Shown here piece by piece: positions 1,238-24,242 of a stretch of 32,000 nucleotides of DNA (the stretch's first letter is position 1; each line of letters begins with the position of its first letter). Location of the stretch: the NCBI RefSeq assembly GCF_036323395.1, contig NZ_AP028907.1:480001-512000 (forward strand), in the 5' to 3' direction. The position numbers and the translations under genes are program-made. The notes below the pieces were generated by a model. It ran no database searches. It saw nothing but the letters and a program-made list of their open reading frames with translations, and was not told the origin of the DNA. The stretch is from Pyrodictium abyssi (GTDB taxonomy: Archaea > Thermoproteota > Thermoprotei_A > Sulfolobales > Pyrodictiaceae).

Positions 1238-1256
1238 GGCGGCAGCGCCTCCCCTC

Positions 1257-3772: not shown

Positions 3773-3966
3773 AGCGTGCCTCCCTCCATGTCTCTATCCT
3801 TGCGTCCTAACGGCGCTGAAACCCCTCTAAACCCCTAGGGCTAGGCTGTACTCGCTCCTCATAAGGAGATAGAGATAGGAGTACTCTATTAAGGACTCAC
3901 CATAGAAGCAGTAGAGGAGCAGCTTGCTGCCTATAGCGCTGTATCCCCCTGGCCCGGGGACAAGGC

Positions 3967-4680: not shown

Positions 4681-4816
4681 CTCACCATATATAGAAGAAG
4701 TAGTATTTAATTTTAACCACGTGACATATAGTAACTAGCCGGGGCCGCAGAAACACCTAGACTACAAAAATATCCTACCCGGCATAGAGCCCCGGACCAG
4801 GCCAGGGCAGGAGGCT

Positions 4817-5098
4817 ATGGCAGGGCTCCGGAGCTACCTACGGGACATAGCGTCGGGGCGCCGCGGAGCAGTAGCCGCCTTCATGCTAGTGACGCTAGTC
4901 TACATAGCATCGCTACGCGGCCTCCTAGCAGTCGAGAAGACAATACCCCACAGGGGAGACCACCCGCTCCTACCCCTCGAAATAGGGGCAACAATACTCT
5001 ACACTACTGCGCTAGCTTTTACAATATACGTGGCCGGGAAACGACGCATTGCAAAGACACGTTATGCTGCCATTCACAGCAACGTTATAAGACAATGA
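4817..5098 (+). CDS. Small membrane protein, unknown function
   Basis: 93 aa with two predicted TM helices (AVAAFMLVTLVYIASL, IGATILYTTALAFTIYVAG). The SD-like GGCAGGAGG lies immediately upstream of the ATG. Confidence 0.45.
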   Translation: MAGLRSYLRDIASGRRGAVAAFMLVTLVYIASLRGLLAVEKTIPHRGDHPLLPLEIGATILYTTALAFTIYVAGKRRIAKTRYAAIHSNVIRQ

Positions 5099-5299
5099 GC
5101 AGGCGAGGAACCATCGGGGGCTTGATGCGGAGTTAGTACAAGCGGCTATAAAGTATAGCCCGGCAGGGTGCCGGGGCTAAAAAGTGAGGAGCATTATGCG
5201 GATCCACTATAATCGTCTAGCTGACGCTGTACAAGCATACGCTGAACACCAGCCGGTTAGGGTATTCTGGCCGCGTTCGGCCGACAGCCGGTCGGGGCG

Positions 5300-5734
5300 T
5301 TACCTTAGCGTCACCACGTAGCTGGCTTCAACACCGTTCTCTGTTACCACCTTCACCTGCACTACTTCGCTGAGCTTACCCGCTGGTACGTTAGCCACTA
5401 GCACCTCGTCCACGGCGCCGGGTGCCAGCTGCACGTTCACTGTAGTGTTTGCGGCAGCCACCGTATTGTTACTGTTTATCACATAGGCTGAGGCTATCTT
5501 AGTCTTTATGTCGCCGACGTTGCGTACGTATATCGTGAAGTTGTAGGTGTTACCGTTTACCTCGTACTGTACTGCGTCTATCTTGATCTGCTCCTGCATC
5601 TGGTAGCTATTCTGCGGCATGCTCTGCACTACACCGCTTACCCATAGGTATAGTAGTGCCGCTGTCGCTACAGCGATCAACACCAGTAGCGCTGTCGCGA
5701 CTACTGGGGATACGCCTCTAAGAAGACTCTTCAT
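5300..5734 (-). CDS. Archaeal type IV pilin (class III signal peptide, Pilin_N/DUF1628-type)
   Basis: N-terminus MKSLLRG|VSPVVATALLVLIAVATAALLYLWVSG is the canonical archaeal prepilin signal: basic residue-Gly, then a cleavage site before VSPV and a hydrophobic helix. The remainder is beta-rich with N-x-T/S sequons (NFT, NNT, NTT). Confidence 0.82.
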   Translation of the reverse strand: MKSLLRGVSPVVATALLVLIAVATAALLYLWVSGVVQSMPQNSYQMQEQIKIDAVQYEVNGNTYNFTIYVRNVGDIKTKIASAYVINSNNTVAAANTTVNVQLAPGAVDEVLVANVPAGKLSEVVQVKVVTENGVEASYVVTLR

Positions 5735-7169: not shown

Positions 7170-8366
7170 ATGGCTAGGGGCTCCATGAGGCTAGACGTTA
7201 GGCGATTTGGCCGTACTAGGCTGGCCGGTGCAGTAGTTGTAGCCGCTGCAGCGCTAGCAGCATTGATAGCGTTCGCCTCGTTAACGGTGAATATTGACGC
7301 GTCTAAGGCCTATGCGGAGCTCGCCGAGAGCGGGTACACTATTACCAGCAGCAAGCTGTTTAGCGAGAAGGTGCTGGGCGCTCAGGGACCAGTAGCCGTC
7401 ATGTTCCGCTCCGAGACGTGCCCGATGTGTGAGCGCATGTACCCCTACTGGAGGGTGGTCGAGGAAAAGGCTCTGGAGCTAGGCTTTAGAGCGTACGATG
7501 TGAAGCTGACTAGGGAGACTAGCCGGGTCTTCGACCGGTACAGGGTGCACGACCTCCCAACATTCATAGTGTTCTACGGCGGCGAGCCGGTTGCAAGGCA
7601 CGTCGGCGCGTTCACGCCGGATGACGGGAACATAACTAGGGCTATGATAGAGTGGGTAACGGCGTCGATCCAGGGTAGCCGGCTGGAAGCAGCTGTAGAG
7701 GAGCAGGGGCCCCAGGCCCAGCAGCCGGGCCAGGAGTCCTCGCCGTTCACTACTCTAGCAGCTTCCGTAGCCACGGCGTTGACTGCGGGTGTTGTGGCCT
7801 CGCTCTCTCCCTGCGTCCTACCGCTGCTAGTCACCAATAGCGTTGCCTTAGCCAGGCGCGGCAAGGGCCCGGGCATAGCGGGCTGCCTGGCGTGTAGCCT
7901 ATCCGCGTTTGCCGGCGTGATGGCTGTTGGCGTGGTCTTTCTCCTGGCTTCTAGCCTCCTCGCGGAGGTACAGACAGTGGTTATGAGCGTCGTAGCCGTG
8001 GCTGTCGTAGCGGCGGGCGTGTCGTCGCTGCTAGGCCTACCGGCCGAGATTCCGAGCTCGCGTAGAATCCGCTCCGGCAGCCTGGCCGTATTCTGCGGGC
8101 TCTACGGGTTCCTAGCTCTCCAGTGTAGCCTCCCCATAGTCGTCGGCGCGTTGCTACTAGTGCTGGGTAGCGGGGGCCCGGGCAAGGGCCTAGTGGTGCT
8201 TCTCGCTTTCTCGCTAGGCCTCTCCCTGCCGCTATCAGTAGCCCTGCACCTCGGCCCCCGTATGGCCGCTCTGACAGGCCGGGTAGAGATGCTCGAGAGA
8301 GCTGGCGGCGTGGTAATGGTCCTCGCCGGGGCGGTCCTCCTAGCCCATAGCCTTGGCCTCATCTAG
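7170..8366 (+). CDS. ccdA: Thioredoxin-domain / CcdA (DsbD-family) fusion, thiol-reductant transporter for cytochrome c maturation
   Basis: 398 aa. N-terminal TM anchor, then a thioredoxin fold with CPMC (residues 84-87, nt 7419-7430) and DLPTFIVF. A Gln/Pro linker follows, then a 6-TM CcdA core with both signature cysteines (LSPCVLPLL and LQCSLPIVV). It lies immediately upstream of ccmF. Confidence 0.85.
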   Translation: MARGSMRLDVRRFGRTRLAGAVVVAAAALAALIAFASLTVNIDASKAYAELAESGYTITSSKLFSEKVLGAQGPVAVMFRSETCPMCERMYPYWRVVEEKALELGFRAYDVKLTRETSRVFDRYRVHDLPTFIVFYGGEPVARHVGAFTPDDGNITRAMIEWVTASIQGSRLEAAVEEQGPQAQQPGQESSPFTTLAASVATALTAGVVASLSPCVLPLLVTNSVALARRGKGPGIAGCLACSLSAFAGVMAVGVVFLLASSLLAEVQTVVMSVVAVAVVAAGVSSLLGLPAEIPSSRRIRSGSLAVFCGLYGFLALQCSLPIVVGALLLVLGSGGPGKGLVVLLAFSLGLSLPLSVALHLGPRMAALTGRVEMLERAGGVVMVLAGAVLLAHSLGLI

Positions 8367-8384: not shown

Positions 8385-11384
8385 ATGCATGGGGTGGTGT
8401 CCTGGATGGCCTTGCACTATACTGGTATAATCCCCGCACTAGCTGCCCTCGTCTACACGACTGCACTGTACATGCTACTCCGCCGCGATATCGGCACAGC
8501 GTCTAGGCTGGTGAAGTGGGCTTCTATGTTCACGGTGGCGGGCTGGCTAGTATACCTGGTCCCGTTCGTTACGCTAGACTATAGCCTGGAAGAGGTCTTC
8601 TGGAACACAAGTCCCGGGCTCCCCCTCTGGATGAGGATAGCGTCGGCGTGGGCTGGCGGCGGTGGCAGCCTCTACTTGTTCGCGGCAATATCGGCAATAG
8701 CCACGCTCTATATTGCCCGTGGCCTAGCCGAGGCCAAGAAAAAGGATGTACTGGTTACCGGGGCAGCAGTAGTGACTCTGGCTGCTATAGTGGGCGCGTT
8801 TGCTAACGGCGCCTTCAGCGTCATGGAGGAGCGCCCTGCTAGTGGTGCGGGGCTTAACCCGCTGCTGAAGAGCCCGTGGCTCTACCCGCACCCCCTCAGC
8901 ACCTTCGGCGGCTACGCGCTACTCTCAATAGGCATGGTGGCGCTCCTCGCAGGCCTACGGCGCCGCGGCCTACTAGTCTACGAGCTTGGCTGGGCCCTCC
9001 TGACTCTCGGCATAATGCTGGGCGGGTACTGGAGCTACGAGACCTTCGGCTGGGGCGGCTACTGGGCCTGGGACCCCGTCGAGACAAGCGAGCTAATGGT
9101 GTGGCTCGCTGCTACACTGCTACCCCACGTCATGGTGGCTGTGCCGAGCCTAGCCGCGTTCACCGAGTACCTGACCCTATCTAGCGTGTTCCTCGCGATG
9201 TACGTGACGCGTAGCGGGCTCAGCCCGCTACACAGCTTCGCCGCGGCTAACCTAGGCGTGGCTATGCTACTAGTAGTTGCTCTAGTAGCGCTTTTCCTAG
9301 CGTTCCGCCGGCTAGGCGAGCTCCGCTTCCCCGGGCTAGATAGGGTGAAGAGAAGCCCCCTCCAGGCGGGCATGCTAGCGGCCACTATAGCGCTCTTCGC
9401 GGCAGCAATATTTGTCTACGCTACACTGCTCCTCCCGTCAATGCTCACAGTGGTAGGCGTCGAGGCTACAGTGCCGCAGATGCAGAGTGGTGTACGCTAC
9501 TTCCACCCCGTGCTATACCCGCTACTAGTAGCTATGCTGGCGGCGATACCGCTAGCGTTCATAGGTGACAGGATAGGATGGAGAGGCTACGCTGCGCTGC
9601 TAGCGGCGACGTCTATAGCCTCGGTTGTAGCCGGCGCTGCAGCGCTCAGCGGCGCTCTCATGCTGACTCCTCTCAGCAGTAGCGCGACTAACGCTATGAT
9701 GGCCTTCGGGCTCCCCTGGGCAGGCCTTGCCGCTGCAGCAGTACTACTCTACATAGCCTTGCGGCTACGCGGAGGCAAACTCGTATCGGAGCGCATGACT
9801 GCTATCAGTCTGCTACACCTAGGCCTCGCAGTCACCGTCATAGGTGTACTGCTCAGCGGTACGCACTCGTTCAACGAGGCCTACTTCATAGACGCTAGCA
9901 TGAAGCCCGGTGAGCCAGTCATCCTACCAAATGGCCTGAAGATAGAGCTGGTCGGCTACGAGTTCGAGCTAAGTAACTCCACGGTGGATATATACACGGG
10001 CTATGCGGGGCGCTCGCTCAGCTACATACTCGCCTGGGACGCGCTAGCAGCTCTAGCCTCGGACTACAGCAAGAAAATAGAGCAGGTGCACGAAGCCGAG
10101 AAGCTGCTAGGATCCAACGAGACACTGCGGAGCCTTGCTGAGCTAGCTGCAGAGACGCACATCTCCACAGTCAACGGCAGCATCGCCATAAAGGGCGCCG
10201 CCAGGGTAACCGGTATAGACATGTTCACGGGAGCCGAGACTCCAATAGCAGATAGTGCTGACATAACAATAGAGCTCGTAAACCCGAGTGTCACAGTAGC
10301 GATAGAACCCGTGCAGGACAGCATGGGTAGGGTTAAGTCAGCCAGGTTCCGCCTCTACGTAACAGCCGATGAGGCCGCCGTAGCGGGGCTCCCAGGAGGC
10401 AACATTACGGCACGGACGGTGCTCGACGTCACGTTCGCGGAGCCGGTACGGCTTACAGTGGGCAGAGTATCGCTAGAGATAAGCCACGTGTACGTCCTAG
10501 CGATGGCAACGGGGTCGACCGGCCACCCTGCTGTAGAGCAGCGCGACGGAGTGCTCGTCTATAAGCCAGCTCTACTGGTCCCAAGCGGCAGCATGGAGGT
10601 AGGGGCGCTAACCGTAGCAGTCCCGCTGGACGTGCCGGCCAGCATGGCAGGGTACGTGGAGAGCTGCCGCGACCCGCTGCTCCAGAGGCTGCTCGGGAGC
10701 AGCCTAGCAGAGGCACTCGCCAACGGCGCAGCGCTAAAGGCTCTAAACCCGCCCGATTGCCGGCCAACAGCAGAGACCCCCCATGGAATCTGCCCCGGCT
10801 ACATAGATGTGCCCCACACAGTCCCGGAGACAGCGTGGCTAGTCCTAAAGCTGCGCATAGAGCACGGCGGCGACGTCCGCGAGGAGACCGTTAGGCTACG
10901 CTTCGAGTCATATGGAGAGGTTCAGGGCATACACGGCCTAGTAACCAAGGTCATACACCCGCGGGTAGGGCTTACGGACGTCTACATAGCCATACACGCG
11001 CCAGTAGTCACACCGGACTGGGGGGTCACCGGGTACCACGAACTGCTGGTATACTATCTCCACGCCGTATACCAGTCGATGAACCTAACGCCTGCCCAGC
11101 GCATAGCTCTAGCAGCCCTGTTCGCGTCAGGCTACATGATGGATACCGCATCGTCGATAAACGATAGGATGCAGCGCAGCCTATTCCTAGAGCATGCTGC
11201 TATCGAGCTCTACCTGCTAGCGGAGGACTTCAGCCCCGAGAACTCGACTATAGCCAGGCAAGGGCTCCCTGTCCAGGTTAAGCTCGTCCCAGGCGTAGCC
11301 CTGGTATGGTACGGCGCCGTTATGATGGCCGTTTCGGCTGTCTATGCTGCTGTTGTTGCGGCCTATACAGCGAGGAGGAGTTAG
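8385..11384 (+). CDS. ccmF: Cytochrome c-type biogenesis protein CcmF (heme lyase) with greatly expanded extracytoplasmic domain
   Basis: 999 aa. WWD heme-handling motif WSYETFGWGGYWAWDPVETSELMVWL. Also present: upstream GLNPLLKSPWLYPHP (P-His1 region), downstream ATLLPH (P-His2), RSGLSPLHSF, and LLHLGLAVTVIGVLLSG (TM-His2 region). All are collinear with E. coli CcmF as I recall it. A C-terminal TM ends in ...ARRS. Confidence 0.9.
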   Translation: MHGVVSWMALHYTGIIPALAALVYTTALYMLLRRDIGTASRLVKWASMFTVAGWLVYLVPFVTLDYSLEEVFWNTSPGLPLWMRIASAWAGGGGSLYLFAAISAIATLYIARGLAEAKKKDVLVTGAAVVTLAAIVGAFANGAFSVMEERPASGAGLNPLLKSPWLYPHPLSTFGGYALLSIGMVALLAGLRRRGLLVYELGWALLTLGIMLGGYWSYETFGWGGYWAWDPVETSELMVWLAATLLPHVMVAVPSLAAFTEYLTLSSVFLAMYVTRSGLSPLHSFAAANLGVAMLLVVALVALFLAFRRLGELRFPGLDRVKRSPLQAGMLAATIALFAAAIFVYATLLLPSMLTVVGVEATVPQMQSGVRYFHPVLYPLLVAMLAAIPLAFIGDRIGWRGYAALLAATSIASVVAGAAALSGALMLTPLSSSATNAMMAFGLPWAGLAAAAVLLYIALRLRGGKLVSERMTAISLLHLGLAVTVIGVLLSGTHSFNEAYFIDASMKPGEPVILPNGLKIELVGYEFELSNSTVDIYTGYAGRSLSYILAWDALAALASDYSKKIEQVHEAEKLLGSNETLRSLAELAAETHISTVNGSIAIKGAARVTGIDMFTGAETPIADSADITIELVNPSVTVAIEPVQDSMGRVKSARFRLYVTADEAAVAGLPGGNITARTVLDVTFAEPVRLTVGRVSLEISHVYVLAMATGSTGHPAVEQRDGVLVYKPALLVPSGSMEVGALTVAVPLDVPASMAGYVESCRDPLLQRLLGSSLAEALANGAALKALNPPDCRPTAETPHGICPGYIDVPHTVPETAWLVLKLRIEHGGDVREETVRLRFESYGEVQGIHGLVTKVIHPRVGLTDVYIAIHAPVVTPDWGVTGYHELLVYYLHAVYQSMNLTPAQRIALAALFASGYMMDTASSINDRMQRSLFLEHAAIELYLLAEDFSPENSTIARQGLPVQVKLVPGVALVWYGAVMMAVSAVYAAVVAAYTARRS

Positions 11385-11543: not shown

Positions 11544-12527
11544 ATGGATCGCACGAATCTCGTTATTCTAGTGTTACTCGTGGCCTTGGCGGTCTCAAAT
11601 GCGGCATGGATAACGCTATACAGTCACAGCAAGTACAACGTGGAGAACCTAATCAGCGAGAACCAGAGGCTAAGCCGGCAGCTAGAACTACTCGCTAGCA
11701 GGGTGAAAGAACTAGAAGACAACAACACAAAACTCCTGCTCCAGCTCCGCGACATAAGCGACCATTACAAGAGGCTCCTAGACCTAATACAACAGGCTAA
11801 CAGCACAATAGCGAATGCAGCCGTCGTGGCCAGGCTACTGGATAACATAAACGCGAGCCTAACAACGCTATACATGTACACCAATACTCACGCATACTAT
11901 ACCCCCAACGTGAGGAGTCTATTCACGCCGGGCACTGTAGCAGACCTAGTAGTGCCGATAACCGGGCATCCAATGTACAATAGGGAACATGCGCTCGAAG
12001 ACATGAGGAAGATGTATGACTGGGTGCAGGAGAACATACAGGACGCAGTGGACCACAACTTTGTTGCAATAAAGAGGCCGGAATACGTGGACATAAACGG
12101 TGCGAAGTACTTCTATAGCTTCCAGATAGACATAGTGGATAACTATATACAGTCACCGTCGGAGACCCTACAGCGCTTGGCAGGCGACTGCGAGGACCAG
12201 TCCATACTGCTAGCATCAATGTACAAGGTCTACCTGGACAATGTCGGCGACGCGTGGACGCTCTGCATGTTCTCGGAGAAGTACGACCACTGTATAGTCG
12301 TGGCCTGGGTGGCCCCCCAGAAGAAGTTCGTGATAGCTGATCCCACGCTGGACTACTATGCTGAGGCGGATAGTCTGCGCAGTGCTCTAGACGACTGGCT
12401 AGCCTACGTGGGGATGGAGATGAAGCAAATCCATAGAATGATAGTATTCAACAATAAAGACTACATAGAGGATGTGTCCTACAACGTGATACACGCTCTC
12501 GAGGAGAAGACTAGCAGACAAAGCTGA
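11544..12527 (+). CDS. Membrane-anchored transglutaminase-like cysteine protease superfamily protein
   Basis: 327 aa. N-terminal TM, a coiled-coil stretch (ENQRLSRQLELLASRVKELEDNNTKLLLQL), then a Cys-His-Asp core: GDCEDQSILLASMY (Cys216, nt 12189-12191), YDHCIVVAW, VIADPT. GC is lower than in the neighbours (about 50% in three hand-counted 60-nt lines). Confidence 0.78.
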   Translation: MDRTNLVILVLLVALAVSNAAWITLYSHSKYNVENLISENQRLSRQLELLASRVKELEDNNTKLLLQLRDISDHYKRLLDLIQQANSTIANAAVVARLLDNINASLTTLYMYTNTHAYYTPNVRSLFTPGTVADLVVPITGHPMYNREHALEDMRKMYDWVQENIQDAVDHNFVAIKRPEYVDINGAKYFYSFQIDIVDNYIQSPSETLQRLAGDCEDQSILLASMYKVYLDNVGDAWTLCMFSEKYDHCIVVAWVAPQKKFVIADPTLDYYAEADSLRSALDDWLAYVGMEMKQIHRMIVFNNKDYIEDVSYNVIHALEEKTSRQS

Positions 12528-12541
12528 GGAGGTGGACGGTT

Positions 12542-13276
12542 ATGCCCCGTATGGCCGCTAGCCTGGTCGCTATAGCGATAATCGTGCTAGCGAGCATCGC
12601 GACGCCTACACTAGCCGAGCAGACTATAAAGGTGAAGGTCTACCACGCTGAGCTAGGCCCGTTCATCCAGACGCTAGCCGATGGGCGCAGGATAGAGGTA
12701 GAGATAGACGTCTACTACCCTGACACACTCTTCTACAGAGGCCCCGAAGAGGGCCTAGGCACAGTGAATTTCACGATAACAACCAACTGGACCGGGCCGT
12801 GGGACGGCATAGTAACAGTGCAAGTAGTAGACCCGGGGTACCGGATTGACCCCACCACGCTCAAGCCTGTAGAGTCTATGAACGCGTGGGCGGAAGGGGG
12901 AGGCACTATAGGCACAGGGACTCTCCACATAGCAAGCGGGGCCTATACCGGCCCCGTCAAGAACGTAACTGTCGTCGTAAGGCCGCACTCGCGCTACTTC
13001 ACAGCGCCCGCCGGCGACTATGTCGCCCAGTACTTCTTCAAGGTGAGGCTCGCCTTCTTCAAGCCTAGCGGCAGCAAGGTGCTAGGTGGCGACGTCAACG
13101 TCTACACCGATAGCCAGACAGCGCCCGCAGTCAAAGTAGTCGTCATAAAGCAGCCTAAAGGGGACGAGGGCCTAGCAAGCTCGGTAGCGCTCAACGCTGC
13201 TATAGCTGCAGCAGTTGTAGCAACAGGGTACGCGGTAGTCGAGTATACCCTAAGGCGCAGGAAGGAGAAACACTAG
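12542..13276 (+). CDS. Secreted beta-rich protein with C-terminal membrane anchor, unknown function
   Basis: 244 aa. Signal peptide ...ASIATPTLA|EQ, C-terminal TM (AIAAAVVATGYAVVEY) and a basic tail RRRKEKH. A strong SD (GGAGGTG) precedes the ATG, 14 nt after the previous stop. Confidence 0.65.
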   Translation: MPRMAASLVAIAIIVLASIATPTLAEQTIKVKVYHAELGPFIQTLADGRRIEVEIDVYYPDTLFYRGPEEGLGTVNFTITTNWTGPWDGIVTVQVVDPGYRIDPTTLKPVESMNAWAEGGGTIGTGTLHIASGAYTGPVKNVTVVVRPHSRYFTAPAGDYVAQYFFKVRLAFFKPSGSKVLGGDVNVYTDSQTAPAVKVVVIKQPKGDEGLASSVALNAAIAAAVVATGYAVVEYTLRRRKEKH

Positions 13277-13583
13277 TAGCCCCAGGCCAGCCTCCGGGGC
13301 GCCCCGCCAGGTTATCCAAGTGTTTTTACCCCCGGGCTTCGAGGGCGGCCGTTCCCTACTCCTATGCGGCGTACCCCGTGACGACGGGCTCTCTTGCGGG
13401 ATGCTGTCCATGGTGTCGTAGTCATCCCAGCTCCCCGGCCTGTGCGGCCTTTGTCGAAACACTGTACTAGGGTGCTCTTCTACTCTTGGCTTATTTATCG
13501 CGAGTTGAAATGCATTGACCGTTCCTGGACGGAGACAAGATTTTATTATAGGATTCAAATATCTTGCTCGCGGAAAAAATAAT

Positions 13584-13599
13584 AAATTAAATTTAAATA
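13584..13599 (+). promoter_or_regulatory. Putative TATA/BRE promoter element of the octaheme cytochrome gene
   Basis: AAATTAAATTTAAATA sits in an AT-rich block about 50-64 nt upstream of the ATG at 13648. The SD-like GGTGAGAGG lies at 13639-13647. Confidence 0.45.
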
Positions 13600-13647
13600 A
13601 CATGTAGAACCCATAGTGAACGTGGAGCAACAGAGTATGGTGAGAGG

Positions 13648-15636
13648 ATGCAGAAGCCTCTAGCCAAGGTAGTAGTCTTTTGGGTGATATCCATCTTCCT
13701 CCTCCCCAGCCTAGCGCCCCTAGCGCAGGCAGCGACATACAGCTGGGGCGAGGAGATCAGCCTCTCCGGTGTACAGCTCACGCAGGAGTCCAAGGACTGT
13801 GTAGAGTGTCACATGCGGGCGACACCCTTCATAGTGTACGACTGGTACAAGAGCAAGCACCGCATGGTTGGCGTGGGCTGCTACGAGTGCCACAGCGCTA
13901 AGCCCGGCACAAGGCCCGACGTCTACGAGCACTACGGCTACTACATAACGACACTAGTGACGCCTAAGCAGTGTGGCCGCTGCCACCCTGCGATAGCAGA
14001 GGAATTCCAGAAGAGCGTCCACGCGTTCGCCGGAGTACACGCCTACGTGCTAAAGGAGGAGCCAGCATACTGGATGATCCTGGCGAAGCAGTTTGGCTGG
14101 GACGAGCACTTCAAGGTACCAGCCGAGTACATTGAGACCGAGTGGGTACCCAAGATAGTGCGCGACTTCGTGGGTGACCAGAAGTACGGTAAGGCGGTGC
14201 TAGAGGAGGACCCGACCAACGCCATAATACCGTACAACCCGCTAGGCCTAAGCATTGACAACTACGTTGCCCAGAAGGCACTCTACATCTGGGGCATACG
14301 CGGCTGTCTAGGATGCCACGGCGTGCGCATGGACGTCAAGGACGCGTTCGCCTACCCGAGCCTAGACGAGCTAATGAAGTACATGAAGGAGGGCAAGGCC
14401 CCCGAGAAGGTAGTATACGACCCAGCATTCATGCACAACCACGGCATCGGCCGTGTGAACCCCGACGGCAGCCTAGGCAGCTGTGAGGCGTGCCACCCGT
14501 ACCACGGCTTCAGCGTAAAGATAGCCAGGAAGGGCGCCTACCAGGCATGTGGCCGCTGCCACACCGGCCCCGACCACCCGAACGACGAGCAGTGGAGCAA
14601 GAGCGTCCACGGCGCAATATTCTGGGGCGAGGCTGAGGACTGGGACTGGGACAAGCCGGTAAACAACTGGATGCCAGGCCGCGACTACAGGGCGCCGACA
14701 TGTGTAACCTGCCACATGGCCGCAGTGTTCAACGAGCGCGGTCAGGTCAAGTACGCTAGCAGCCACGACGTAGCCATAATAAGCAAGTTCAAGCTAGGCA
14801 AGTGGGTCTACACGCTACCACGTGTAGCAGGCCTACCCGACTTCGCCATACCGACAGCCACTGCGACACAGGCGCCGGTGTTCAAGAGTCCGACAACCGG
14901 TGACACAATAACGCTAGTATACCCAGAGCCCGACTGGAAGGTGCGCAGACAGAGAGCAATCGACATGTGTGCCCAGTGCCACACCAAGGAGTATGCAGCT
15001 GCATGGCTGAAGACCTACGACTGGATGATAATACTAGTAGACTACATGAGAGACGAGTACGTGCTAACCATAGCCAACATGCTGAAGGCTAAGGGCCTGT
15101 TTACGCCAATGGACGAGTGGATGGTGAGGAACCTAGGCGCTATGGCCAACAGGCCTACCAAGATGTCTGCAGCGCACTTCGGCCCCGACTTCACCTGGTG
15201 GGAGGGCATAATGCACTTCGCCGAGAAGATAGAGGAGTGGCTAATCGACGTCTACGAGAGGCCTGCTGTAGCCAAGAAGGCGCCAGAGATACGTGAGAAG
15301 ATTGAGGAGATACTGCCATGGTTCAGGGAGCAGTGGGAGGGCGAGGGCAGCACTGGTACAGTTCACACCCTAGCAGAGGTGAAGACAACTCTAGCTAAGG
15401 CCGTCGAGGTACCGGGCATGAAGGCCTATGCGGAGAAGGTGGAGAAGCTAGAGACGCCAGCTAAGCCACTAGTAACTAAGGCTGCTGTAACCACCGTAGG
15501 CGAGGTAGGCGAGCACAGCCTAGCACTACCGGGCGATGAGGCCAGTGTGGAGATGCCAGTGGCTATCTCTGCTGTGTTCCCGGCAGCGCCTCTACTACTA
15601 GTACTAGTGTCCTTTAGGAAGCGTGTAGCAGCCTAA
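13648..15636 (+). CDS. Octaheme cytochrome c of the hydroxylamine oxidoreductase (HAO) family, signal peptide plus C-terminal TM anchor
   Basis: 662 aa with eight CxxCH motifs: CVECH, CYECH, CGRCH, CLGCH, CEACH, CGRCH, CVTCH, CAQCH. Flanking context is collinear with Nitrosomonas HAO as I recall it: KDCVECH..TP..V..W..S.H; C..CH..H.FS; CHTGPDH....W..S.HG; APTC..CHM. Signal peptide ...LAQA|AT. The C-terminal hydrophobic helix plus FRKRVAA resembles the HAO C-terminal anchor. Confidence 0.9.
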   Translation: MQKPLAKVVVFWVISIFLLPSLAPLAQAATYSWGEEISLSGVQLTQESKDCVECHMRATPFIVYDWYKSKHRMVGVGCYECHSAKPGTRPDVYEHYGYYITTLVTPKQCGRCHPAIAEEFQKSVHAFAGVHAYVLKEEPAYWMILAKQFGWDEHFKVPAEYIETEWVPKIVRDFVGDQKYGKAVLEEDPTNAIIPYNPLGLSIDNYVAQKALYIWGIRGCLGCHGVRMDVKDAFAYPSLDELMKYMKEGKAPEKVVYDPAFMHNHGIGRVNPDGSLGSCEACHPYHGFSVKIARKGAYQACGRCHTGPDHPNDEQWSKSVHGAIFWGEAEDWDWDKPVNNWMPGRDYRAPTCVTCHMAAVFNERGQVKYASSHDVAIISKFKLGKWVYTLPRVAGLPDFAIPTATATQAPVFKSPTTGDTITLVYPEPDWKVRRQRAIDMCAQCHTKEYAAAWLKTYDWMIILVDYMRDEYVLTIANMLKAKGLFTPMDEWMVRNLGAMANRPTKMSAAHFGPDFTWWEGIMHFAEKIEEWLIDVYERPAVAKKAPEIREKIEEILPWFREQWEGEGSTGTVHTLAEVKTTLAKAVEVPGMKAYAEKVEKLETPAKPLVTKAAVTTVGEVGEHSLALPGDEASVEMPVAISAVFPAAPLLLVLVSFRKRVAA

Positions 15637-15652
15637 GGGGGCGGTGAGGGCT

Positions 15653-15677
15653 GGGGAGGAGACCCTCCCCTCTTTTT
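15653..15677 (+). terminator. Hairpin plus T-tract terminator after the octaheme gene
   Basis: GGGGAGG (15653-15659), loop AGAC, CCTCCCC (15664-15670), then TCTTTTT (15671-15677). It begins 17 nt after the TAA stop. Confidence 0.6.
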
Positions 15678-15891
15678 ACCGCGGCCTAGGCCCCTCCTGC
15701 GCCCCTATCGGCGCCGCCGTGAATCCACCTCGGCCTGTCTTAATATTTGTGTTCGTTAGCCTCTGGCAGCGTGTATACGTCTAGCCGATAGCCCTGGCTC
15801 GGGGCTGTTTCTTAGCTGGAGCGTTGGCGTCGAAGCGTTTAGCTTTATCAAGGGTTACAGATGCTCTTGACCACTGGTAGGGGGAGGCTTA

Positions 15892-17772
15892 TTGTACTGG
15901 GAGCCCGTGCTGTACCTAGCTCTGCTGTCCGAGGCTGTTGCGGCAGCACTTGCTATCCGCAGGGGGATGTGTGAGGGCTATGATAAACAGCTCGAGTCGA
16001 GCCCCATATACCGTGTAGGCTTTGTGCTTGTGTTGATGTCTTTTATCCTCGCTATGCGCTTCGACGTGATGGTGACAATACCCAGCCTTATGCTCCTAGC
16101 TTCCAGCCTAGCTGTACTAGCCGGAACCAGGCTCAGAGCCAGGATGAGCCCGGTTGAGGTACTTGGCTCGGCTATAGCGTTCTACTCTTTCGCACTTGCT
16201 TCACTTGCCGCCCGCGGCGCAGTGCTTGACATAGATCCGCGTGGTAAGGGGCTGCTGCCCTGGATTCTGGTGGCGCTTTCGGCTGGGCTAGGCCTCTTGT
16301 CGGCTCTATCTACGCTAGAGAAGCCCCGCAGGGGCATAGCTGCTTTCATGGGGCTGCTAAGCGGCGTGGGCCTCGTGGCTCTTGGCTACTGGCTGCTCAT
16401 AGAGACGCGTGTCGGAACGCCATTGTACAGTGATGCTCTAGGCTCTGCACTGCTTGCTCTGCTGCTCACCGGCGTCGCTATAGCATCTGGGCTGTCTCCG
16501 TACCTCGTCATGGCAGCTGGTATACTGGCCGGTCTCTTTGCTAGCCGCTCGCTACTGGCAGGCGGTGTGCCATACATCGCGTGTACTGGTAACTGTGGCT
16601 CGCTCGCTGTGGCGTGGCTTATCTTCTCGGTTATCGTGGCTCTGCCCCGGCTATACCTAGAGGCTGCTGAGATGCATGATAGGATACGCTCAGCGGACGT
16701 AAACGTGGCCCTATCACCCCCTGTGCTGGCATCTGCTTCAGTGCTTGCCGCTGGGATTGCAGCGTGGGTGGCGGCTCAAGGCACTGTGGGTATAGCCCCT
16801 ATGGCGGTCGTTGGTATACTTGCTGCAGCTGCTGCTGTCGGCTCTGCTGCCGTAGCTGTACTCCTCGTTGGGGGCGCTGTTGCTGTCTACAGCCCGGTGC
16901 TAGGCCTCATCGCGGCTGCTGCTGTAGCTCTTGTATTCACAGTGCTGCGGGGCCGAAGCATCGGCTTCTTCTCGGCCCCGAAGAGCGTCCTCCCCGGGCT
17001 ACTGCTCGTAGCCGTAGGGCTTGCAGCTGGAGGCTACATCGTCGCTACCCTGGGCCACGTGTCCGAAGCCAAGGCGTCTATTGAGGTGTCCGGCCTAGGC
17101 TCCCTGGCTCCCATACAGCCGCCGAGCGATGAAGCTACCCATGCGTTCTTCCAGCTCTACCTCGGCGTCAAGAACGAGACTATACTCTACGCTATCCTCG
17201 AGCCAACTGTGGGTGAAGAGGAGGCTCTAAGGATGGTTGAATTTGTCCATGCTATCAGGGTTGCTGCCGAGAAGAGAGGCATCCAGGACCCCTACAATAT
17301 AACCGAGCTTGACATACCACGCGAGATGCCGAGCCTGAAAGCGGTACTCGATGTTAATGGCATGCACGTCCCCGTGGAGATACCTGCCTCTAGTGTACTG
17401 TACGGCCATCCCTTCAATACTAGGGTCATCCAGGCTGGGCTAGACCTCGTCTCTGTAGGGCTTCCCGGTAATGCTACGAGCGCGCTGACTAGCGCCTACC
17501 TTGGTATGATCTCTGACCCGGGCCTCGTGGATGGGGATGCTCTGCGCTACTCCTTATTCGCGGCCATGGCTGTTAGCTGGAGGGAGACGGGCTCGCTCAA
17601 CATGACGGCTCAGCTGATGTTCGACATGTTGCTGGGCAACGTTTCCGGGTCCGGCACCGTAGTGGCGGGTGTTGATATTGCTAGGGCTCCGTTAGGGGTG
17701 CTAGCGCTAGCAGTATACGGGGCGTGTATAGTTGCCGCTCCCTTGGCTCCTATTTTTGCGCGCCGTAACTAA
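15892..17772 (+). CDS. Polytopic membrane protein with about 200-aa extracytoplasmic domain and C-terminal TM, unknown function
   Basis: 626 aa with a TTG start preceded by GGAGG (15883-15887). About 12 Ala/Leu/Gly-rich TM helices occupy the first 390 aa or so. A soluble domain with N-x-T/S sequons (NET, NIT, NAT, NMT, NVS) follows, then a terminal TM and ARRN. No heme or Fe-S motif is seen. Confidence 0.7.
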   Translation: MYWEPVLYLALLSEAVAAALAIRRGMCEGYDKQLESSPIYRVGFVLVLMSFILAMRFDVMVTIPSLMLLASSLAVLAGTRLRARMSPVEVLGSAIAFYSFALASLAARGAVLDIDPRGKGLLPWILVALSAGLGLLSALSTLEKPRRGIAAFMGLLSGVGLVALGYWLLIETRVGTPLYSDALGSALLALLLTGVAIASGLSPYLVMAAGILAGLFASRSLLAGGVPYIACTGNCGSLAVAWLIFSVIVALPRLYLEAAEMHDRIRSADVNVALSPPVLASASVLAAGIAAWVAAQGTVGIAPMAVVGILAAAAAVGSAAVAVLLVGGAVAVYSPVLGLIAAAAVALVFTVLRGRSIGFFSAPKSVLPGLLLVAVGLAAGGYIVATLGHVSEAKASIEVSGLGSLAPIQPPSDEATHAFFQLYLGVKNETILYAILEPTVGEEEALRMVEFVHAIRVAAEKRGIQDPYNITELDIPREMPSLKAVLDVNGMHVPVEIPASSVLYGHPFNTRVIQAGLDLVSVGLPGNATSALTSAYLGMISDPGLVDGDALRYSLFAAMAVSWRETGSLNMTAQLMFDMLLGNVSGSGTVVAGVDIARAPLGVLALAVYGACIVAAPLAPIFARRN

Positions 17773-17850
17773 ATTAAATGAATAATTGTTTGTGCTGAAT
17801 GTATCGATATTTTTGAGACAAAGGCTAAAAGTATTGTCAATGCTTTTTCC

Positions 17851-17857
17851 TATAAAA
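17851..17857 (+). promoter_or_regulatory. Putative TATA box of the 13-14-heme cytochrome gene
   Basis: TATAAAA lies 23-29 nt upstream of the ATG at 17880, inside a 107-nt AT-rich intergenic region. GGAGGGG at 17864-17870 could alternatively act as an SD. Confidence 0.45.
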
Positions 17858-17879
17858 CCGGCGGAGGGGTGAAGCCGCC

Positions 17880-19151
17880 ATGGACGCTAGGCAAGCTGCT
17901 AGAACAGTGGTAATAGTAGCTGTATTCTTAGTAGCGCTGCTAGGCTACTGGCGGCTGACGTTACCAGGCTACTTTGAAGGCATGAGCCTCTGTGGCGAGG
18001 GCTGCCATGTAACCAACACCCTCGACTACAAGAAGATTACACACCCGTTCTGGTGCATTGGCTGCCACGGATTCGGTGTCAAGAGCGAAATTATGCCGGG
18101 GATACCGCTGCAGCGAGACCCCGAGATAGAGATGCTTGTCGAGGAGCACGGTGAATGCGTCATGTGCCACAGTGTGCCCGGAGAATTCCACTGGAAGCAC
18201 ATCAACGCCACCGAGGAAGAACTAGCCAAACTAGGGCTAGAGCGTCCAGTGCAGTGTACAGACTGCCACACCACAGCCTATCACGGCGGCCACAAGGATA
18301 TGCCTAAAGACGACTCGTGTCTCAAGTGCCATGATACTGAGAAGCTCCATCCAGACATGAATAAGAAGCTTGTCTCAGCGTGTACCAAGTGCCACTCCGA
18401 GGAGCCCGCGGTAGACTGGACTGTGTTCAGAAAGGGCCAGCTGGGCTATGGCTTCGTAGCCGATGCTGGCCTAGCTCTAGCCTCCGACATAGGTGTCGTG
18501 AAGTCTGTGGCTCCTGGCTGCCTCCTATGCCATAACACGCCGGAGGCACAGGGGCACATAAAGCATGTAGGCAAGAAGTACGAGGGTAGAGAAGTAGACT
18601 GTCTCGATTGCCACAGGAACGATATACCGCACGGCGAGAAAGTGGGAACCAGTGTATGTCTCGACTGCCACCAGCCCGGTGAAGTAAAGTGCCACGATGT
18701 TAACTTCGAAGAGTATCTCGTCGACTGCTACAAGTGCCACGGCGGCTTCAAGCTCGCCAACGAGACGCTATACCTAACCGGAGTCGGGTGTAGGGGCTGC
18801 CACGCTGATACACTCAAGAAGATAACAAGCCTAGGACTACACCTCAAACACACAAAGTACTTCAACTGCGATAAGTGCCACGACATCGAATCTGGCAGCC
18901 ACAAAGCCTTCGTAGAGTCTGCCGGTGATGTGGAGAAGTGTCTAGAATGCCATACAGAGGCAGGAGGCGTAAAGCCAGAAGCACTCAAGGATATCAAATC
19001 CACGGTTGCGCTAACCTTCAGCGAGGACATAAAGCACGTAGACCTCGTGAAGAGGGCCGACGGTAACTGCTTCAAGTGCCACGATGAATGGTATGTCAGC
19101 GGCAAGCCCAAGGTATTCTACTACAAGGTGCAAGATAGTGATAAGGGCTAG
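17880..19151 (+). CDS. Membrane-anchored multiheme cytochrome c (13 CxxCH + 1 CxxxCH)
   Basis: 423 aa with an N-terminal TM (TVVIVAVFLVALLGYW). Motifs: CGEGCH (CX3CH, nt 17991-18008), then CIGCH, CVMCH, CTDCH, CLKCH, CTKCH, CLLCH, CLDCH, CLDCH, CYKCH, CRGCH, CDKCH, CLECH, CFKCH. About 29 His in total, enough for bis-His ligation of every heme. Confidence 0.92.
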   Translation: MDARQAARTVVIVAVFLVALLGYWRLTLPGYFEGMSLCGEGCHVTNTLDYKKITHPFWCIGCHGFGVKSEIMPGIPLQRDPEIEMLVEEHGECVMCHSVPGEFHWKHINATEEELAKLGLERPVQCTDCHTTAYHGGHKDMPKDDSCLKCHDTEKLHPDMNKKLVSACTKCHSEEPAVDWTVFRKGQLGYGFVADAGLALASDIGVVKSVAPGCLLCHNTPEAQGHIKHVGKKYEGREVDCLDCHRNDIPHGEKVGTSVCLDCHQPGEVKCHDVNFEEYLVDCYKCHGGFKLANETLYLTGVGCRGCHADTLKKITSLGLHLKHTKYFNCDKCHDIESGSHKAFVESAGDVEKCLECHTEAGGVKPEALKDIKSTVALTFSEDIKHVDLVKRADGNCFKCHDEWYVSGKPKVFYYKVQDSDKG

Positions 19152-19978: not shown

Positions 19979-20232
19979 CAGGGTAGTGCCGAGCCCAATA
20001 GGCTGAATGGTTTTTGCACCCACGTATCCGCTTAAGCTAGGCGTGGCCCCACCTGTTCCCCTGTGCAGGTCCTCAGTATGCCTCCAGGGGCCCTTGTTTA
20101 CGCGGTAAGGGCTCATGATGTGTCTCTGGTTGTGCAGCCGCGAGCCTCTTAGCTGGTAGGGCCCACGGCTGTGCCTGGCACCAACTCCTCCCACCGGGGC
20201 CGGCTAGCTGCCTAGACAAGGGCTGTAGGGCT

Positions 20233-22730: not shown

Positions 22731-22805
22731 GGCGTAGGGGCACCTCCCGCGGGGTCCAGGTGCCTAGGAGCATGGCGGCCCACAAACATGTGTGGCGGTG
22801 ATGGG

Positions 22806-24239: not shown

Positions 24240-24242
24240 CGC

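What the first reader, a model, noticed from the sequence alone, without database searches (positions are those of the whole stretch)
8385..11384. CcmF heme lyase with an extracytoplasmic domain several-fold larger than in bacterial CcmF
The N-terminal 500 aa or so match CcmF landmarks, including the WWD motif and all four His regions. Between the TM-His2 helix (LLHLGLAVTVIGVLLSG) and the last TM lies a domain that I recall as about 100 aa in E. coli CcmF. Here it is about 460 aa (roughly nt 9880-11270). It contains three Cys: C761 at nt 10665-10667, C792 at 10758-10760 and C803 at 10791-10793. Archaeal System I is reported to lack CcmH, so this insertion could supply the missing apocytochrome-handling or thiol function. 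It could also adapt the lyase to very heme-rich substrates. No ccmABCDE genes are visible in this window.
Basis: partly seen in the sequence, partly recalled or inferred. Interest (0 to 1): 0.65.

Follow-up and report, generated by a model that had tools for sequence, protein, structure and literature searches.

The report
Crenarchaeal CcmF with giant outer cap
This gene encodes a genuine cytochrome c heme lyase (CcmF) whose outward-facing "cap" loop is about 470 residues instead of about 100; the enlargement is a conserved, uncharacterised trait of all crenarchaeal (Thermoproteota) CcmF proteins, and its cysteines do not look like a thiol-redox site.

Summary
ORF 8385-11384 (999 aa; likely true start 8406) has a canonical CcmF membrane core: the WWD motif and all four His are invariant in 104 homologs. 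Between the TM-His2 helix and the last TM lies a ~470-aa extracytoplasmic domain, against ~105 aa in E. coli. It is not a fusion artefact. All 104 full-length relatives carry a 381-512-aa domain at this site.

Only the first beta-hairpin and the last strand plus TM are homologous to the bacterial cap loop. The ~430 residues between them have no sequence or fold relatives:
- An exhaustive search of 1.84 billion proteins found 48 hits, all CcmF-like.
- A motif scan of 185,579 species genomes found 57 loci, all labelled archaeal and nearly all Thermoproteota.
- Foldseek found no significant PDB match.

The thiol idea fails. C761 is unique, the C792/C803 pair is missing in about 40% of homologs, and there is no conserved CxxC or CcmH similarity. 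A thioredoxin-CcdA fusion sits immediately upstream. The link to heme-rich substrates also fails, because Aeropyrum, whose characterised cytochrome c is monoheme, has the domain too.

A role as an enlarged cap or apocytochrome platform in this CcmH-less system is plausible but untested. The window copy is a second paralog beside multiheme cytochrome genes. This is a new variant of a known kind, of moderate interest.

The parts
7170..8366 (+). Thioredoxin-CcdA fusion (398 aa). It has an N-terminal signal-anchor TM, an extracytoplasmic Trx domain with CPMC (C84/C87), and a CcdA/DsbD-like multi-TM domain with SPC215 and QC319. Probably co-transcribed with ccmF.
   Evidence: Pfam Thioredoxin E 1e-7. 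NCBIfam DsbD-fusion-like match to residues 161-382. Hydropathy and Cys motifs. The same gene lies immediately upstream on the same strand in 28 related loci.
8385..11384 (+). ccmF ORF: 999 aa from the first ATG. The probable true start is ATG 8406, giving 992 aa.
8385..9866 (+). CcmF membrane core (residues 1-494). Contains P-His1 H169 (8889-8891), WWD W223-E233 (9051-9083), TM-His1 H248 (9126-9128), P-His2 H283 (9231-9233) and TM-His2 H478 (9816-9818).
   Evidence: PF01578 at 69.5 bits against a cut-off of 29.9. TIGR00353 matches residues 58-512. 6zmq E 1.4e-44 with the profile. hhalign to E. coli CcmF gives 99.9%. These residues are invariant in 104 sequences. Foldseek to 6zmq gives E 2e-10.
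9867..11279 (+). Extracytoplasmic domain (residues ~495-965, about 470 aa) in place of the ~105-aa bacterial beta-cap loop.
   Evidence: No hydrophobic segment between residues 494 and 965. AF2 pLDDT is 92.8 for the full protein and 90.8 for the domain alone. The domain is 381-512 aa in all 104 homologs. N-x-S/T sequons run at 1.85 per 100 aa, against 0.15 in the TM part.
9873..9989 (+). N-terminal edge beta-hairpin (residues ~497-535), homologous to the first strands of the bacterial CcmF periplasmic cap.
   Evidence: The profile alignment runs to 6zmq residue 551 and to E. coli CcmF residue 534. Y500, G509 and D535 are conserved.
10020..10817 (+). Lineage-specific insert A (residues ~546-811). 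It comprises a long helical hairpin (545-589), a sheet module of 10-15-residue strands (599-750), short helices (753-785) and a Cys-stapled loop (786-811). It is the fastest-evolving part.
   Evidence: DSSP of the model. Identity to paralog P0006 is 28%, against 65% in the TM core. Mean column conservation is 0.19-0.27. No Pfam, PDB or Foldseek match.
10665..10667 (+). C761. Not conserved: the column is G/S/T/L in relatives and R in the closest relative.
10758..10793 (+). C792...C803 pair in a low-confidence surface loop. Probably a structural disulfide.
   Evidence: C occupies these columns in 72 and 66 of 120 sequences. Spacing varies from 4 to 21 residues, and the loop has no Cys in 43 of 104 homologs. 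Cys counts in the domain are mostly even. pLDDT in the loop is 59-83.
10818..11024 (+). Conserved beta core (residues 812-880) carrying the signature R839-F-E-x-x-G844-E845-x-x-G848-I-H850-G851-L-V853 (nt 10899-10943) and Y867.
   Evidence: Invariant residues are R839, G844, E845, G848, G851 and Y867. A DNA pattern built from this motif hits only loci labelled archaeal, nearly all Thermoproteota.
11025..11258 (+). Helical module (residues 881-958) with conserved H885, Y891 (invariant), Y917 and Y943.
11259..11381 (+). Last beta-strand plus final TM helix (residues 959-999; K966 and P969 invariant, W975 nearly so), homologous to the C-terminus of bacterial CcmF and NrfE.
   Evidence: Its HMM scores E. 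coli CcmF at 16.4 bits and NrfE at 12.1 bits, above all 2000 shuffled controls.
11544..13276 (+). Two membrane-anchored or secreted ORFs of unknown function (327 aa with a weak transglutaminase-like hit; 244 aa). They lie between ccmF and the cytochrome genes.
   Evidence: Both are conserved in the same order in Pyrodictium MAG locus L050.
13648..19151 (+). Likely substrates: an 8-heme cytochrome c (13648-15636), a 626-aa ORF with no Pfam family (15892-17772), and a cytochrome c with 13 CxxCH plus one CxxxCH (17880-19151).
   Evidence: Pfam multiheme families. Motif counts. The arrangement is conserved in L050 as far as that locus extends: the 8-heme cytochrome and the 626-aa ORF are found there, but the 13-heme cytochrome is not.

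Best explanation
The gene encodes the System I holocytochrome c synthase CcmF of a Pyrodictium-type crenarchaeon, probably P. abyssi.

The ~490-residue membrane core is orthodox. Two TM histidines would hold the b-heme, and the WWD loop flanked by two outer histidines would receive heme from CcmE.

The loop that follows the TM-His2 helix is different. In bacteria it folds into a ~100-residue beta cap sitting over the heme-attachment site. Here it keeps its first hairpin and its last strand, but about 430 lineage-specific residues have been added between them: a helical hairpin, a large long-stranded sheet module, a conserved beta core with the RFEANGExQGIHGLV signature, and a helical bundle.

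This enlarged, probably N-glycosylated cap is a fixed feature of Thermoproteota CcmF. These archaea use the streamlined Ccm system: CcmABC, a CxxxY-type CcmE, CcmF and a Trx-CcdA fusion, with no CcmH or CcmI.

Inferred, not shown:
- The enlarged cap forms a chamber or docking platform over the WWD site. It would hold the unfolded apocytochrome, and possibly holo-CcmE, doing the substrate presentation that CcmH/CcmI do in bacteria.
- CXXCH thiol reduction is done by the co-transcribed Trx-CcdA fusion, not by the cap.
- C792-C803 is a structural disulfide.
- This window copy is a second CcmF paralog dedicated to, or co-regulated with, the adjacent multiheme cytochromes.
For: Identity as CcmF.

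Domain size and boundaries.

Edges homologous to the bacterial cap loop.

Middle has no relatives:
- phmmer against 1.84e9 proteins gives 48 hits, all CcmF-like or fragments.
- No Pfam match even at E<=10.
- PDB profile best E 0.32.
- Foldseek best E 0.048, probability 0.03.

Clade-wide and real:
- 104 full-length homologs, including the complete genomes of Pyrodictium, Hyperthermus, Pyrolobus, Ignicoccus, Aeropyrum and Pyrofollis.
- Pyrobaculum also has it.

Functional constraint in the cap: invariant R839, G844, E845, G848, G851, Y867, Y891 and K966.

Confident rigid placement on the core: pTM 0.90 for the full-length model.

Outside location: homology to the periplasmic loop of 6zmq, and 12-fold sequon enrichment.

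Thiol arm next door.

Variant System I in the clade: P. delaneyi has ccmB-trx-ccmF-ccmC-ccmE(CHESY) and ccmA, and Pyrobaculum has ccmF-cyt c-ccmC-ccmA-ccmB-trx/ccdA.

Literature:
- The bacterial CcmF periplasmic beta structure is proposed to cap the heme site (PMC10663686).
- Archaea lack CcmH/I, and how they manage without it is open (PMC9084895, PMC4429474).

Paralog status:
- A second 1001-aa copy, P0006, is on a contig of the same length (2,224,219 bp) as the window protein's, presumably the same one.
- The P0006-type ortholog sits in the main ccm cluster in P. delaneyi.
- The window-type arrangement with the 8-heme cytochrome is conserved in L050.
Against: No experiment or structure shows what the cap does.

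Methanosarcina matures cytochromes c with CcmABCEF alone, using a split CcmF that the authors describe as segments of the bacterial protein (PMC9084895). A large cap is therefore not a general requirement of CcmH-less systems.

The largest module, insert A, is the least conserved: 18-28% identity between the window protein and paralogs or distant orthologs. This fits a loosely constrained surface decoration as well as a specificity module.

I could not read model coordinates, so the distance of the conserved motif from the WWD site is unknown.

Dedication of this paralog to the neighbouring cytochromes rests on gene order only.
Confidence: 0.5

Rival explanations
1. The cap is a CcmH substitute in the redox sense. 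Its cysteines would reduce or resolve the apocytochrome CXXCH disulfide, or the CcmE-heme thioether.
For: The only three Cys of the protein lie in the domain. Archaea lack CcmH (PMC4429474, PMC9084895).
Against: C761 is unique to this protein. The C792/C803 pair is absent in about 40% of homologs, and 35 of 104 homologs have no Cys in the domain. Spacing varies from 4 to 21 residues. CxxC occurs in only 2 of 104 homologs, at non-homologous sites. hhalign to E. coli CcmH gives 0.6% probability. No thioredoxin-like or CcmH-like fold match was found. A Trx(CPMC)-CcdA fusion is encoded immediately upstream and is syntenic across the clade.
Confidence: 0.04
2. The enlargement is a structural or envelope adaptation with no direct catalytic role. 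It could be a glycosylated spacer or stabiliser for a hyperthermophile with an S-layer or wide pseudo-periplasm, or simply a tolerated lineage-specific insertion.
For: Insert A is poorly conserved. Sequons are enriched. The domain is restricted to hyperthermophilic Thermoproteota. There are no functional motifs apart from one signature.
Against: Eight invariant residues and many more near-invariant ones lie in the 812-968 part. The domain has been retained at 381-512 aa in every one of 104 homologs across orders. It occupies exactly the position of the bacterial cap over the active site (PMC10663686).
Confidence: 0.28
3. The large domain adapts the lyase to very heme-rich (multiheme) substrates.
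For: The window copy lies next to 8-heme and 13-heme cytochrome genes. Multiheme cytochrome genes neighbour ccmF in about 12 of 61 loci.
Against: The domain is present in Aeropyrum pernix (999 aa), whose characterised c-type cytochrome is the monoheme subunit of a bc complex (PMC4429474). Bacteria such as Shewanella and Geobacter mature dozens of multiheme cytochromes with ordinary ~650-aa CcmF (established knowledge, not tested here).
Confidence: 0.08
4. The ORF is two genes joined by a sequencing or assembly error.
For: None found. One relative (P0002, on a 4.9-kb metagenome contig) looks like a chimera of two paralogs.
Against: The same colinear architecture occurs in 104 full-length homologs from independent complete genomes and MAGs. 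The final strand and TM after the domain are homologous to the bacterial CcmF C-terminus. AF2 packs the whole chain confidently, with pTM 0.90.
Confidence: 0.01

Closest known systems
Bacterial CcmF (E. coli CcmF, 647 aa; Thermus thermophilus CcmF, PDB 6ZMQ)
   Same: The multi-helix membrane core, WWD motif, P-His1/P-His2 and TM-His1/TM-His2 are shared. A periplasmic loop follows the TM-His2 helix, and its first hairpin and last strand plus TM are homologous.
   Different: The cap loop is ~470 aa against ~105 aa, with about 430 residues that have no sequence or fold counterpart. It works without CcmH/CcmI and with a CxxxY CcmE (PMC4429474). It scores far below the NCBIfam CcmF/NrfE cut-off: 120.7 bits against 569.
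Streamlined archaeal Ccm of Methanosarcina acetivorans (CcmABC, CcmE CxxxY, CcmF1/CcmF2; PMC9084895)
   Same: An archaeal variant System I with no CcmD/H/I and a cysteine-type CcmE. Trx-like CcmG and CcdA are present.
   Different: There CcmF is split into two genes, described as the N- and C-terminal segments of bacterial CcmF, and no giant cap is reported. Here there is one 999-aa polypeptide, and CcmG and CcdA are fused into a single protein.
Dedicated CcmF paralogs such as E. coli NrfE (NrfEFG)
   Same: A second CcmF-family gene sits beside particular cytochrome c genes, in addition to a housekeeping copy.
   Different: No NrfF/NrfG (CcmH/CcmI-like) partners. No clear non-canonical heme motif in the neighbours apart from one CxxxCH. 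Specificity is untested.
System II CcsBA (PDB 7S9Y/7S9Z), with its large periplasmic chamber and beta cap
   Same: It belongs to the WWD/heme-handling superfamily (weak match to residues 199-302). A large extracytoplasmic domain is positioned above the heme-attachment site and is proposed to gate CXXCH access (PMC10663686).
   Different: The similarity is by analogy only. The domains share no sequence or Foldseek similarity. In CcsBA heme arrives through a channel, not from CcmE.

Membership tests
CcmF/NrfE holocytochrome c synthase (System I) | WWD tryptophan-rich motif in an outer loop | tested here: met
   WGGYWAWDPVE at residues 223-233 is invariant or near-invariant in 104 homologs and aligns to the E. 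coli WWD.
CcmF/NrfE holocytochrome c synthase (System I) | Four functional histidines: P-His1 and P-His2 flanking the WWD, and TM-His1 and TM-His2 as b-heme ligands | tested here: met
   H169, H283, H248 and H478 are invariant. Each aligns to a histidine-containing stretch of E. coli CcmF (fhpp, svhaf, almhs, aahlglav) in hhalign. I take these to be H173/H303/H261/H491; that numbering is from memory and was not read from the output.
CcmF/NrfE holocytochrome c synthase (System I) | Significant sequence and fold similarity to characterised CcmF | tested here: met
   6zmq: E 5.7e-21 with the single sequence and 1.4e-44 with the profile. hhalign to E. coli CcmF: 99.9%, E 1.4e-32. Foldseek to 6zmq: E 2e-10, probability 1.00, TM (target) 0.59. 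Pfam PF01578: 69.5 bits against 29.9.
CcmF/NrfE holocytochrome c synthase (System I) | Reaches the curated family cut-offs (NCBIfam TIGR00353; Pfam CcmF_C PF16327 over its full length) | tested here: not met
   TIGR00353 scores 120.7 bits against a cut-off of 569, and only model positions 6-465 of 578 match. PF16327 is not detected in the window protein. In relatives it covers only profile positions ~12-223 of 323. The shortfall is the divergent cap region, not the catalytic core.
CcmF/NrfE holocytochrome c synthase (System I) | Genomic association with other ccm genes | tested here: met
   Orthologs are flanked by ccmA, ccmB, ccmC, ccmE(CxxxY) and trx-ccdA. The window copy has only trx-ccdA.
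CcmF/NrfE holocytochrome c synthase (System I) | Heme ligation activity dependent on holo-CcmE | not testable with these tools
   Needs genetics or biochemistry.
CcmH (thiol-disulfide component of the synthase) | Conserved redox-active CXXC (LRCxxC) motif | tested here: not met
   The window domain has no CxxC. Only 2 of 104 homologs have one, at unrelated positions, and 35 of 104 have no Cys at all.
CcmH (thiol-disulfide component of the synthase) | Sequence or fold similarity to CcmH/CcmI | tested here: not met
   hhalign of the domain profile against E. coli CcmH (350 aa, including the TPR part) gives 0.6% probability. No such hit appears in Foldseek or the PDB profile search.
CcsBA-type periplasmic cap/chamber | Homologous beta-cap domain | tested here: not met
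   No CcsBA hit for the domain in the PDB profile search, nor among the 50 best Foldseek matches listed. CcsBA matches only the WWD region. The resemblance is positional and functional analogy (PMC10663686).

The most novel reading that the evidence does not exclude
The ~470-aa cap is a built-in replacement for the CcmH/CcmI apocytochrome receptor. It would form a gated chamber over the WWD site that captures unfolded apocytochrome c and holo-CcmE in cells without a confined periplasm. Its fast-evolving insert A would set substrate preference, which would explain why Pyrodictium keeps two paralogs with 28% identical inserts, one of them beside multiheme cytochrome genes. That would be a third architectural solution for substrate presentation among heme-attachment machines, alongside CcmFH(I) and the CcsBA chamber.
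Probability: 0.22. Interest if true: 0.62.

Novelty: new variant of a known kind. Interest (0 to 1): 0.42.

Why it matters
How archaea attach heme to cytochromes c without CcmH/CcmI is an acknowledged open question (PMC9084895).

This analysis shows that one whole phylum, the Thermoproteota, carries a large, well-folded, conserved extracytoplasmic module exactly where bacterial CcmF has its small cap over the active site. The module has no detectable relatives and no Pfam family.

That gives a concrete, mutable target (R839, E845, H850, Y867, H885, Y891; insert A swaps) for testing CcmH-independent substrate handling. It also offers a candidate new fold.

The analysis removes a tempting wrong idea, that the three cysteines form a thiol site. 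It shows that current family models under-describe these proteins, which are annotated as 'CcsA' or 'hypothetical'.

It does not change the basic picture of System I.

Tried and rejected
1. The search for related loci with the 27-sequence domain alignment failed because no stretch was conserved enough. I replaced it with a degenerate DNA pattern of the RFEANGExQGIHGLV motif.

2. The look-up of encoding contigs for the paralog P0006 returned nothing. The housekeeping context was therefore taken from the P. delaneyi ortholog P0007.

3. By eye, GLTDVYIAI looked like E. coli GITRDLYAAL. The HMM of residues 805-880 ranked E. coli CcmF 814th among 2002 real and shuffled targets, so I rejected homology of the beta core at the sequence level. 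Only residues 955-999 pass.

4. hhalign of the domain profile against the E. coli CcmF C-terminal 148 aa alone was not significant.

5. An internal-repeat test between the two halves of the sheet module was not significant (hhalign probability 6.7%).

6. Foldseek with the full model returned only 6zmq. Foldseek with the domain alone returned nothing significant. The viral structure library was not searched, as it is irrelevant here.

7. Papers on Pyrodictium iron reduction (PMC8105010) and archaeal cytochromes (PMC4429474) do not mention the size of CcmF. Allen et al. 2006 was not available to read, so an earlier remark on the length cannot be excluded.

8. I could not access model coordinates. 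No Cys-Cys or motif-to-WWD distances were measured.

9. I did not survey CcmF loop lengths in Euryarchaeota directly. Their lack of this domain rests on the exhaustive domain search, the motif scan and the description of Methanosarcina CcmF1/F2 (PMC9084895).


Full report
**Observation.** The ORF at 8385-11384 (+) exists and translates to 999 aa.
- The identical database protein is called as 992 aa. This corresponds to ATG 8406 (MALHYTG...). That start matches the N-termini of relatives and is preceded by GGTGGTG, so the true start is probably 8406.
- A hydropathy scan finds a run of hydrophobic segments up to residue 494. It then finds nothing until a final segment at about 965-997.

**The membrane core is an orthodox CcmF.**
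- Pfam PF01578 matches residues 94-277, at 69.5 bits against a cut-off of 29.9.
- NCBIfam CcmF/NrfE TIGR00353 matches residues 58-512 to model positions 6-465 of 578.
- The solved T. thermophilus CcmF (6zmq) is hit at E 5.7e-21 with the single sequence and E 1.4e-44 with a 104-sequence profile.
- hhalign against E. coli CcmF gives 99.9% probability over archaeal residues 50-526 and E. coli residues 50-534.
- H169, H248, H283, H478 and the WWD motif W223-E233 are invariant in 104 homologs. They align with the stretches where I place the functional E. coli histidines.
- An AlphaFold2 model of the whole chain is confident, with pLDDT 92.8 and pTM 0.90. Its only significant PDB neighbour is 6zmq, at Foldseek E 2e-10.
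- The total scores fall far below the NCBIfam cut-off, 120.7 bits against 569, because the last ~110 model positions (the cap region) do not match.

**Anatomy of the extracytoplasmic domain (residues ~495-965).** The model shows the following modules:
- A short beta-hairpin region (502-535).
- A long helical hairpin (545-589).
- A sheet module built of 10-15-residue strands (599-750).
- Short helices (753-785).
- A low-confidence loop (786-811) that holds C792 and C803.
- A beta core (812-870).
- A helical bundle (886-959).
- A last strand (961-969) leading into the final TM.

Conservation is bimodal:
- The edges and the 812-968 part are conserved. Invariant residues are R839, G844, E845, G848, G851, Y867, Y891 and K966. 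Near-invariant residues include Y500, D535, P810, H850, H885, Y917 and Y943.
- Residues 550-800 are variable.
- Between the window protein and its genomic paralog, identity is 65% in the TM core, 52% in the beta core and only 28% in insert A.

N-glycosylation sequons are 12-fold denser in the domain than in the membrane part, 1.85 against 0.15 per 100 aa across 104 proteins. Together with homology to the periplasmic loop of bacterial CcmF, this places the domain outside the cell.

**Relation to the bacterial cap.**
- E. coli CcmF has about 105 residues between the TM-His2 helix and the last TM.
- The profile alignments run through the TM-His2 helix into the first strands of the bacterial loop, to 6zmq residue 551 and E. 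coli residue 534.
- An HMM of archaeal residues 955-999 scores E. coli CcmF at 16.4 bits and NrfE at 12.1 bits, above all 2000 shuffled controls.
- An HMM of residues 805-880 does not recognise the E. coli loop, which ranks 814th.
- So the archaeal domain is the same loop as the bacterial beta cap. Both ends are retained, and about 430 residues between them have no detectable bacterial counterpart.
- The literature describes the bacterial loop as a beta-stranded structure lying directly above the heme site, possibly gating CXXCH access (PMC10663686).

**No relatives elsewhere.**
- The domain alone (window 9861-11288) was searched with phmmer against 1.84 billion representative proteins. It found 48 proteins, all ~850-1065-aa CcmF-like proteins or fragments of them.
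- Pfam gives nothing even at E<=10.
- A domain profile against all PDB sequences gives a best E of 0.32.
- Foldseek with a confident domain-only model (pLDDT 90.8) gives no match at E<=0.001. The best is E 0.048, probability 0.03, TM below 0.1.
- hhalign against E. coli CcmH, including its CcmI-like TPR half, gives 0.6%.

**Distribution.**
- The 120 best database homologs are 846-1072 aa apart from three shorter entries (636-787 aa), two of which are labelled partial.
- In 104 full-length sequences the domain is 381-512 aa.
- Named sources include Pyrodictium abyssi, P. delaneyi, P. occultum, Pyrofollis, Hyperthermus, Pyrolobus, three Ignicoccus species and Aeropyrum pernix.
- A degenerate DNA pattern of the signature motif was scanned over one genome for each of 185,579 species. 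It hit 57 loci, none with a bacterial label. They include Desulfurococcales, Pyrodictiaceae, Acidilobaceae, Aeropyrum, Ignicoccus, Thermodiscus and Pyrobaculum oguniense, which are Thermoproteota. One MAG is labelled Nitrososphaerota.
- The large cap is therefore the phylum-wide norm. It is neither a peculiarity of this gene nor an assembly artefact.
- Both the window protein and a 49%-identical 1001-aa paralog named P. abyssi (P0006) are recorded on a contig of 2,224,219 bp, presumably the same one. The window is therefore very probably from P. abyssi (inference).

**The cysteines and the thiol hypothesis.**
- C761 is not conserved.
- The C792 and C803 columns hold Cys in 72 and 66 of 120 sequences.
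- The spacing of the pair ranges from 4 to 21 residues, and 43 of 104 homologs have no Cys in that loop.
- 35 of 104 homologs have no Cys anywhere in the domain. Counts are mostly even: 2 in 50 homologs and 4 in 11.
- CxxC occurs in 2 of 104 homologs, at unrelated places.
- This is the signature of an optional structural disulfide, not a redox centre.

The thiol arm is instead encoded next door. ORF 7170-8366 ends 18 nt before the ccmF ORF. It has a signal anchor, a thioredoxin domain with CPMC, and a CcdA/DsbD-like membrane domain with the two characteristic Cys. The same fusion lies immediately upstream of ccmF, on the same strand, in 28 related loci, including Aeropyrum.

**Genomic context.**
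- In P. delaneyi the order is ccmB - trx fusion - ccmF (P0007) - ccmC - a 180-aa membrane-anchored protein ending ...GCHESY - further genes - ccmA. The 180-aa protein is the CxxxY-type CcmE.
- In Pyrobaculum the order is ccmF - cytochrome c - ccmC - ccmA - ccmB - trx/ccdA - hemA.
- ccmA or ccmC neighbour the large ccmF in about 20-27 of 61 loci.
- The clade thus has the known CcmH-less variant System I (PMC4429474; Allen et al. 2006 as cited there).
- The window copy differs. It has the trx-ccdA gene but no ccmA/B/C/E.
- It is followed by two unknown exported ORFs, an 8-heme cytochrome c, a 626-aa ORF with no Pfam family, and a cytochrome with 13 CxxCH plus one CxxxCH.
- The same order, as far as the 626-aa ORF, recurs in a Pyrodictium MAG, L050.
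- I read the window gene as a second paralog associated with these cytochromes, by analogy with NrfE-type dedicated lyases. This rests on gene order alone.

**Mechanism.**
Shown:
- The protein is a CcmF with an intact catalytic core.
- The cap loop is expanded about 4.5-fold by lineage-specific, well-folded sequence.
- Part of that sequence is under strong constraint.
- The cysteines are not a conserved redox site.
- A dedicated Trx-CcdA is co-located.

Inferred:
- The enlarged cap sits over the WWD/P-heme site, as the bacterial cap does.
- It serves as a chamber or platform for apocytochrome and/or holo-CcmE. This would functionally cover what CcmH/CcmI contribute in bacteria, with the variable insert A possibly tuning substrate preference.

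Against a strict requirement: Methanosarcina matures cytochromes with CcmABCEF and no such domain (PMC9084895). The least conserved module is also the largest. A structural or glycosylated spacer role remains a serious rival. The heme-rich-substrate idea is weakened by Aeropyrum, which has the full domain but a monoheme cytochrome c (PMC4429474).

**Novelty.**
- These proteins are in public databases, often named 'CcsA', 'cytochrome c assembly protein' or 'hypothetical'.
- Their membership of the Ccm system in Ignicoccus and relatives has been noted (PMC4429474).
- In the papers I could search and read, nothing describes the enlarged cap, its conservation or its lack of relatives.
- It is a new variant of a known kind: a known enzyme with an undescribed, phylum-specific domain.
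- Interest is moderate. It offers a concrete handle on CcmH-independent heme ligation and probably a new fold, but no unexpected chemistry is demonstrated.

**Limits.**
- I had no access to model coordinates.
- No AlphaFold DB search was possible.
- Euryarchaeal CcmF lengths were not surveyed directly.
- Allen et al. 2006 was not read.
- All functional statements about the cap are inference.

Noticed in passing
window 7170-8366 (+): A thioredoxin (CPMC)-CcdA fusion sits 18 nt upstream of ccmF. It combines CcmG-like and CcdA functions in one polypeptide, and the same arrangement occurs in 28 related loci.
   Followed up: yes
window 8385-11384 versus P0006 (contig of the same 2,224,219-bp length, presumably the same genome): The genome has two ~1000-aa CcmF paralogs at 49% identity. 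The TM core is 65% identical, but insert A of the cap is only 28% identical. The P0006-type ortholog sits in the main ccm cluster in P. delaneyi (L064).
   Followed up: partly
window 11544-19151 (+); L050 1594-7778: A conserved cluster lies downstream of this ccmF copy: two unknown exported ORFs (one weakly transglutaminase-like), an 8-heme cytochrome c, a 626-aa ORF with no Pfam family, and a cytochrome c with 13 CxxCH plus one CxxxCH. The order as far as the 626-aa ORF is the same in a Pyrodictium MAG; the 13-heme cytochrome was not found there.
   Followed up: partly
P0002 (JGI metagenome contig, 4920 bp): The closest relative looks like a chimera. Residues 51-350 are 100% identical to the housekeeping-type P0004 (identity falls to ~60% after residue 400), and residues ~400-1000 are about 90% identical to the window paralog. 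The junction lies in a stretch that is highly similar (82-98% identical) among these proteins. This is either a metagenome assembly artefact or paralog recombination.
   Followed up: partly
window 8385-8410: The longest ORF starts at ATG 8385, but homolog N-termini and an upstream GGTGGTG motif favour ATG 8406. That gives a 992-aa product, matching the database gene call.
   Followed up: partly
L064 8385-9944 (P. delaneyi): The Trx fusion upstream of the housekeeping ccmF is longer here (519 aa). It shows a weak, sub-threshold cytochrome c (cbb3-type) domain hit at residues 175-262, between the Trx domain and the CcdA-like membrane part. This could be a Trx-cytochrome c-CcdA fusion.
   Followed up: no
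window 347-5734 (-): An archaeal type IV pilus or archaellum-like assembly set: two T2SSF-family membrane proteins, a T2SSE/VirB11-type ATPase, and a small ORF (5300-5734) with a pilin-like hydrophobic N-terminus.
   Followed up: no
window 20000-29000: G+C rises to 0.64-0.72 over the purine-biosynthesis and oxidoreductase genes, against 0.52-0.61 in the ccmF-cytochrome region.
   Followed up: no
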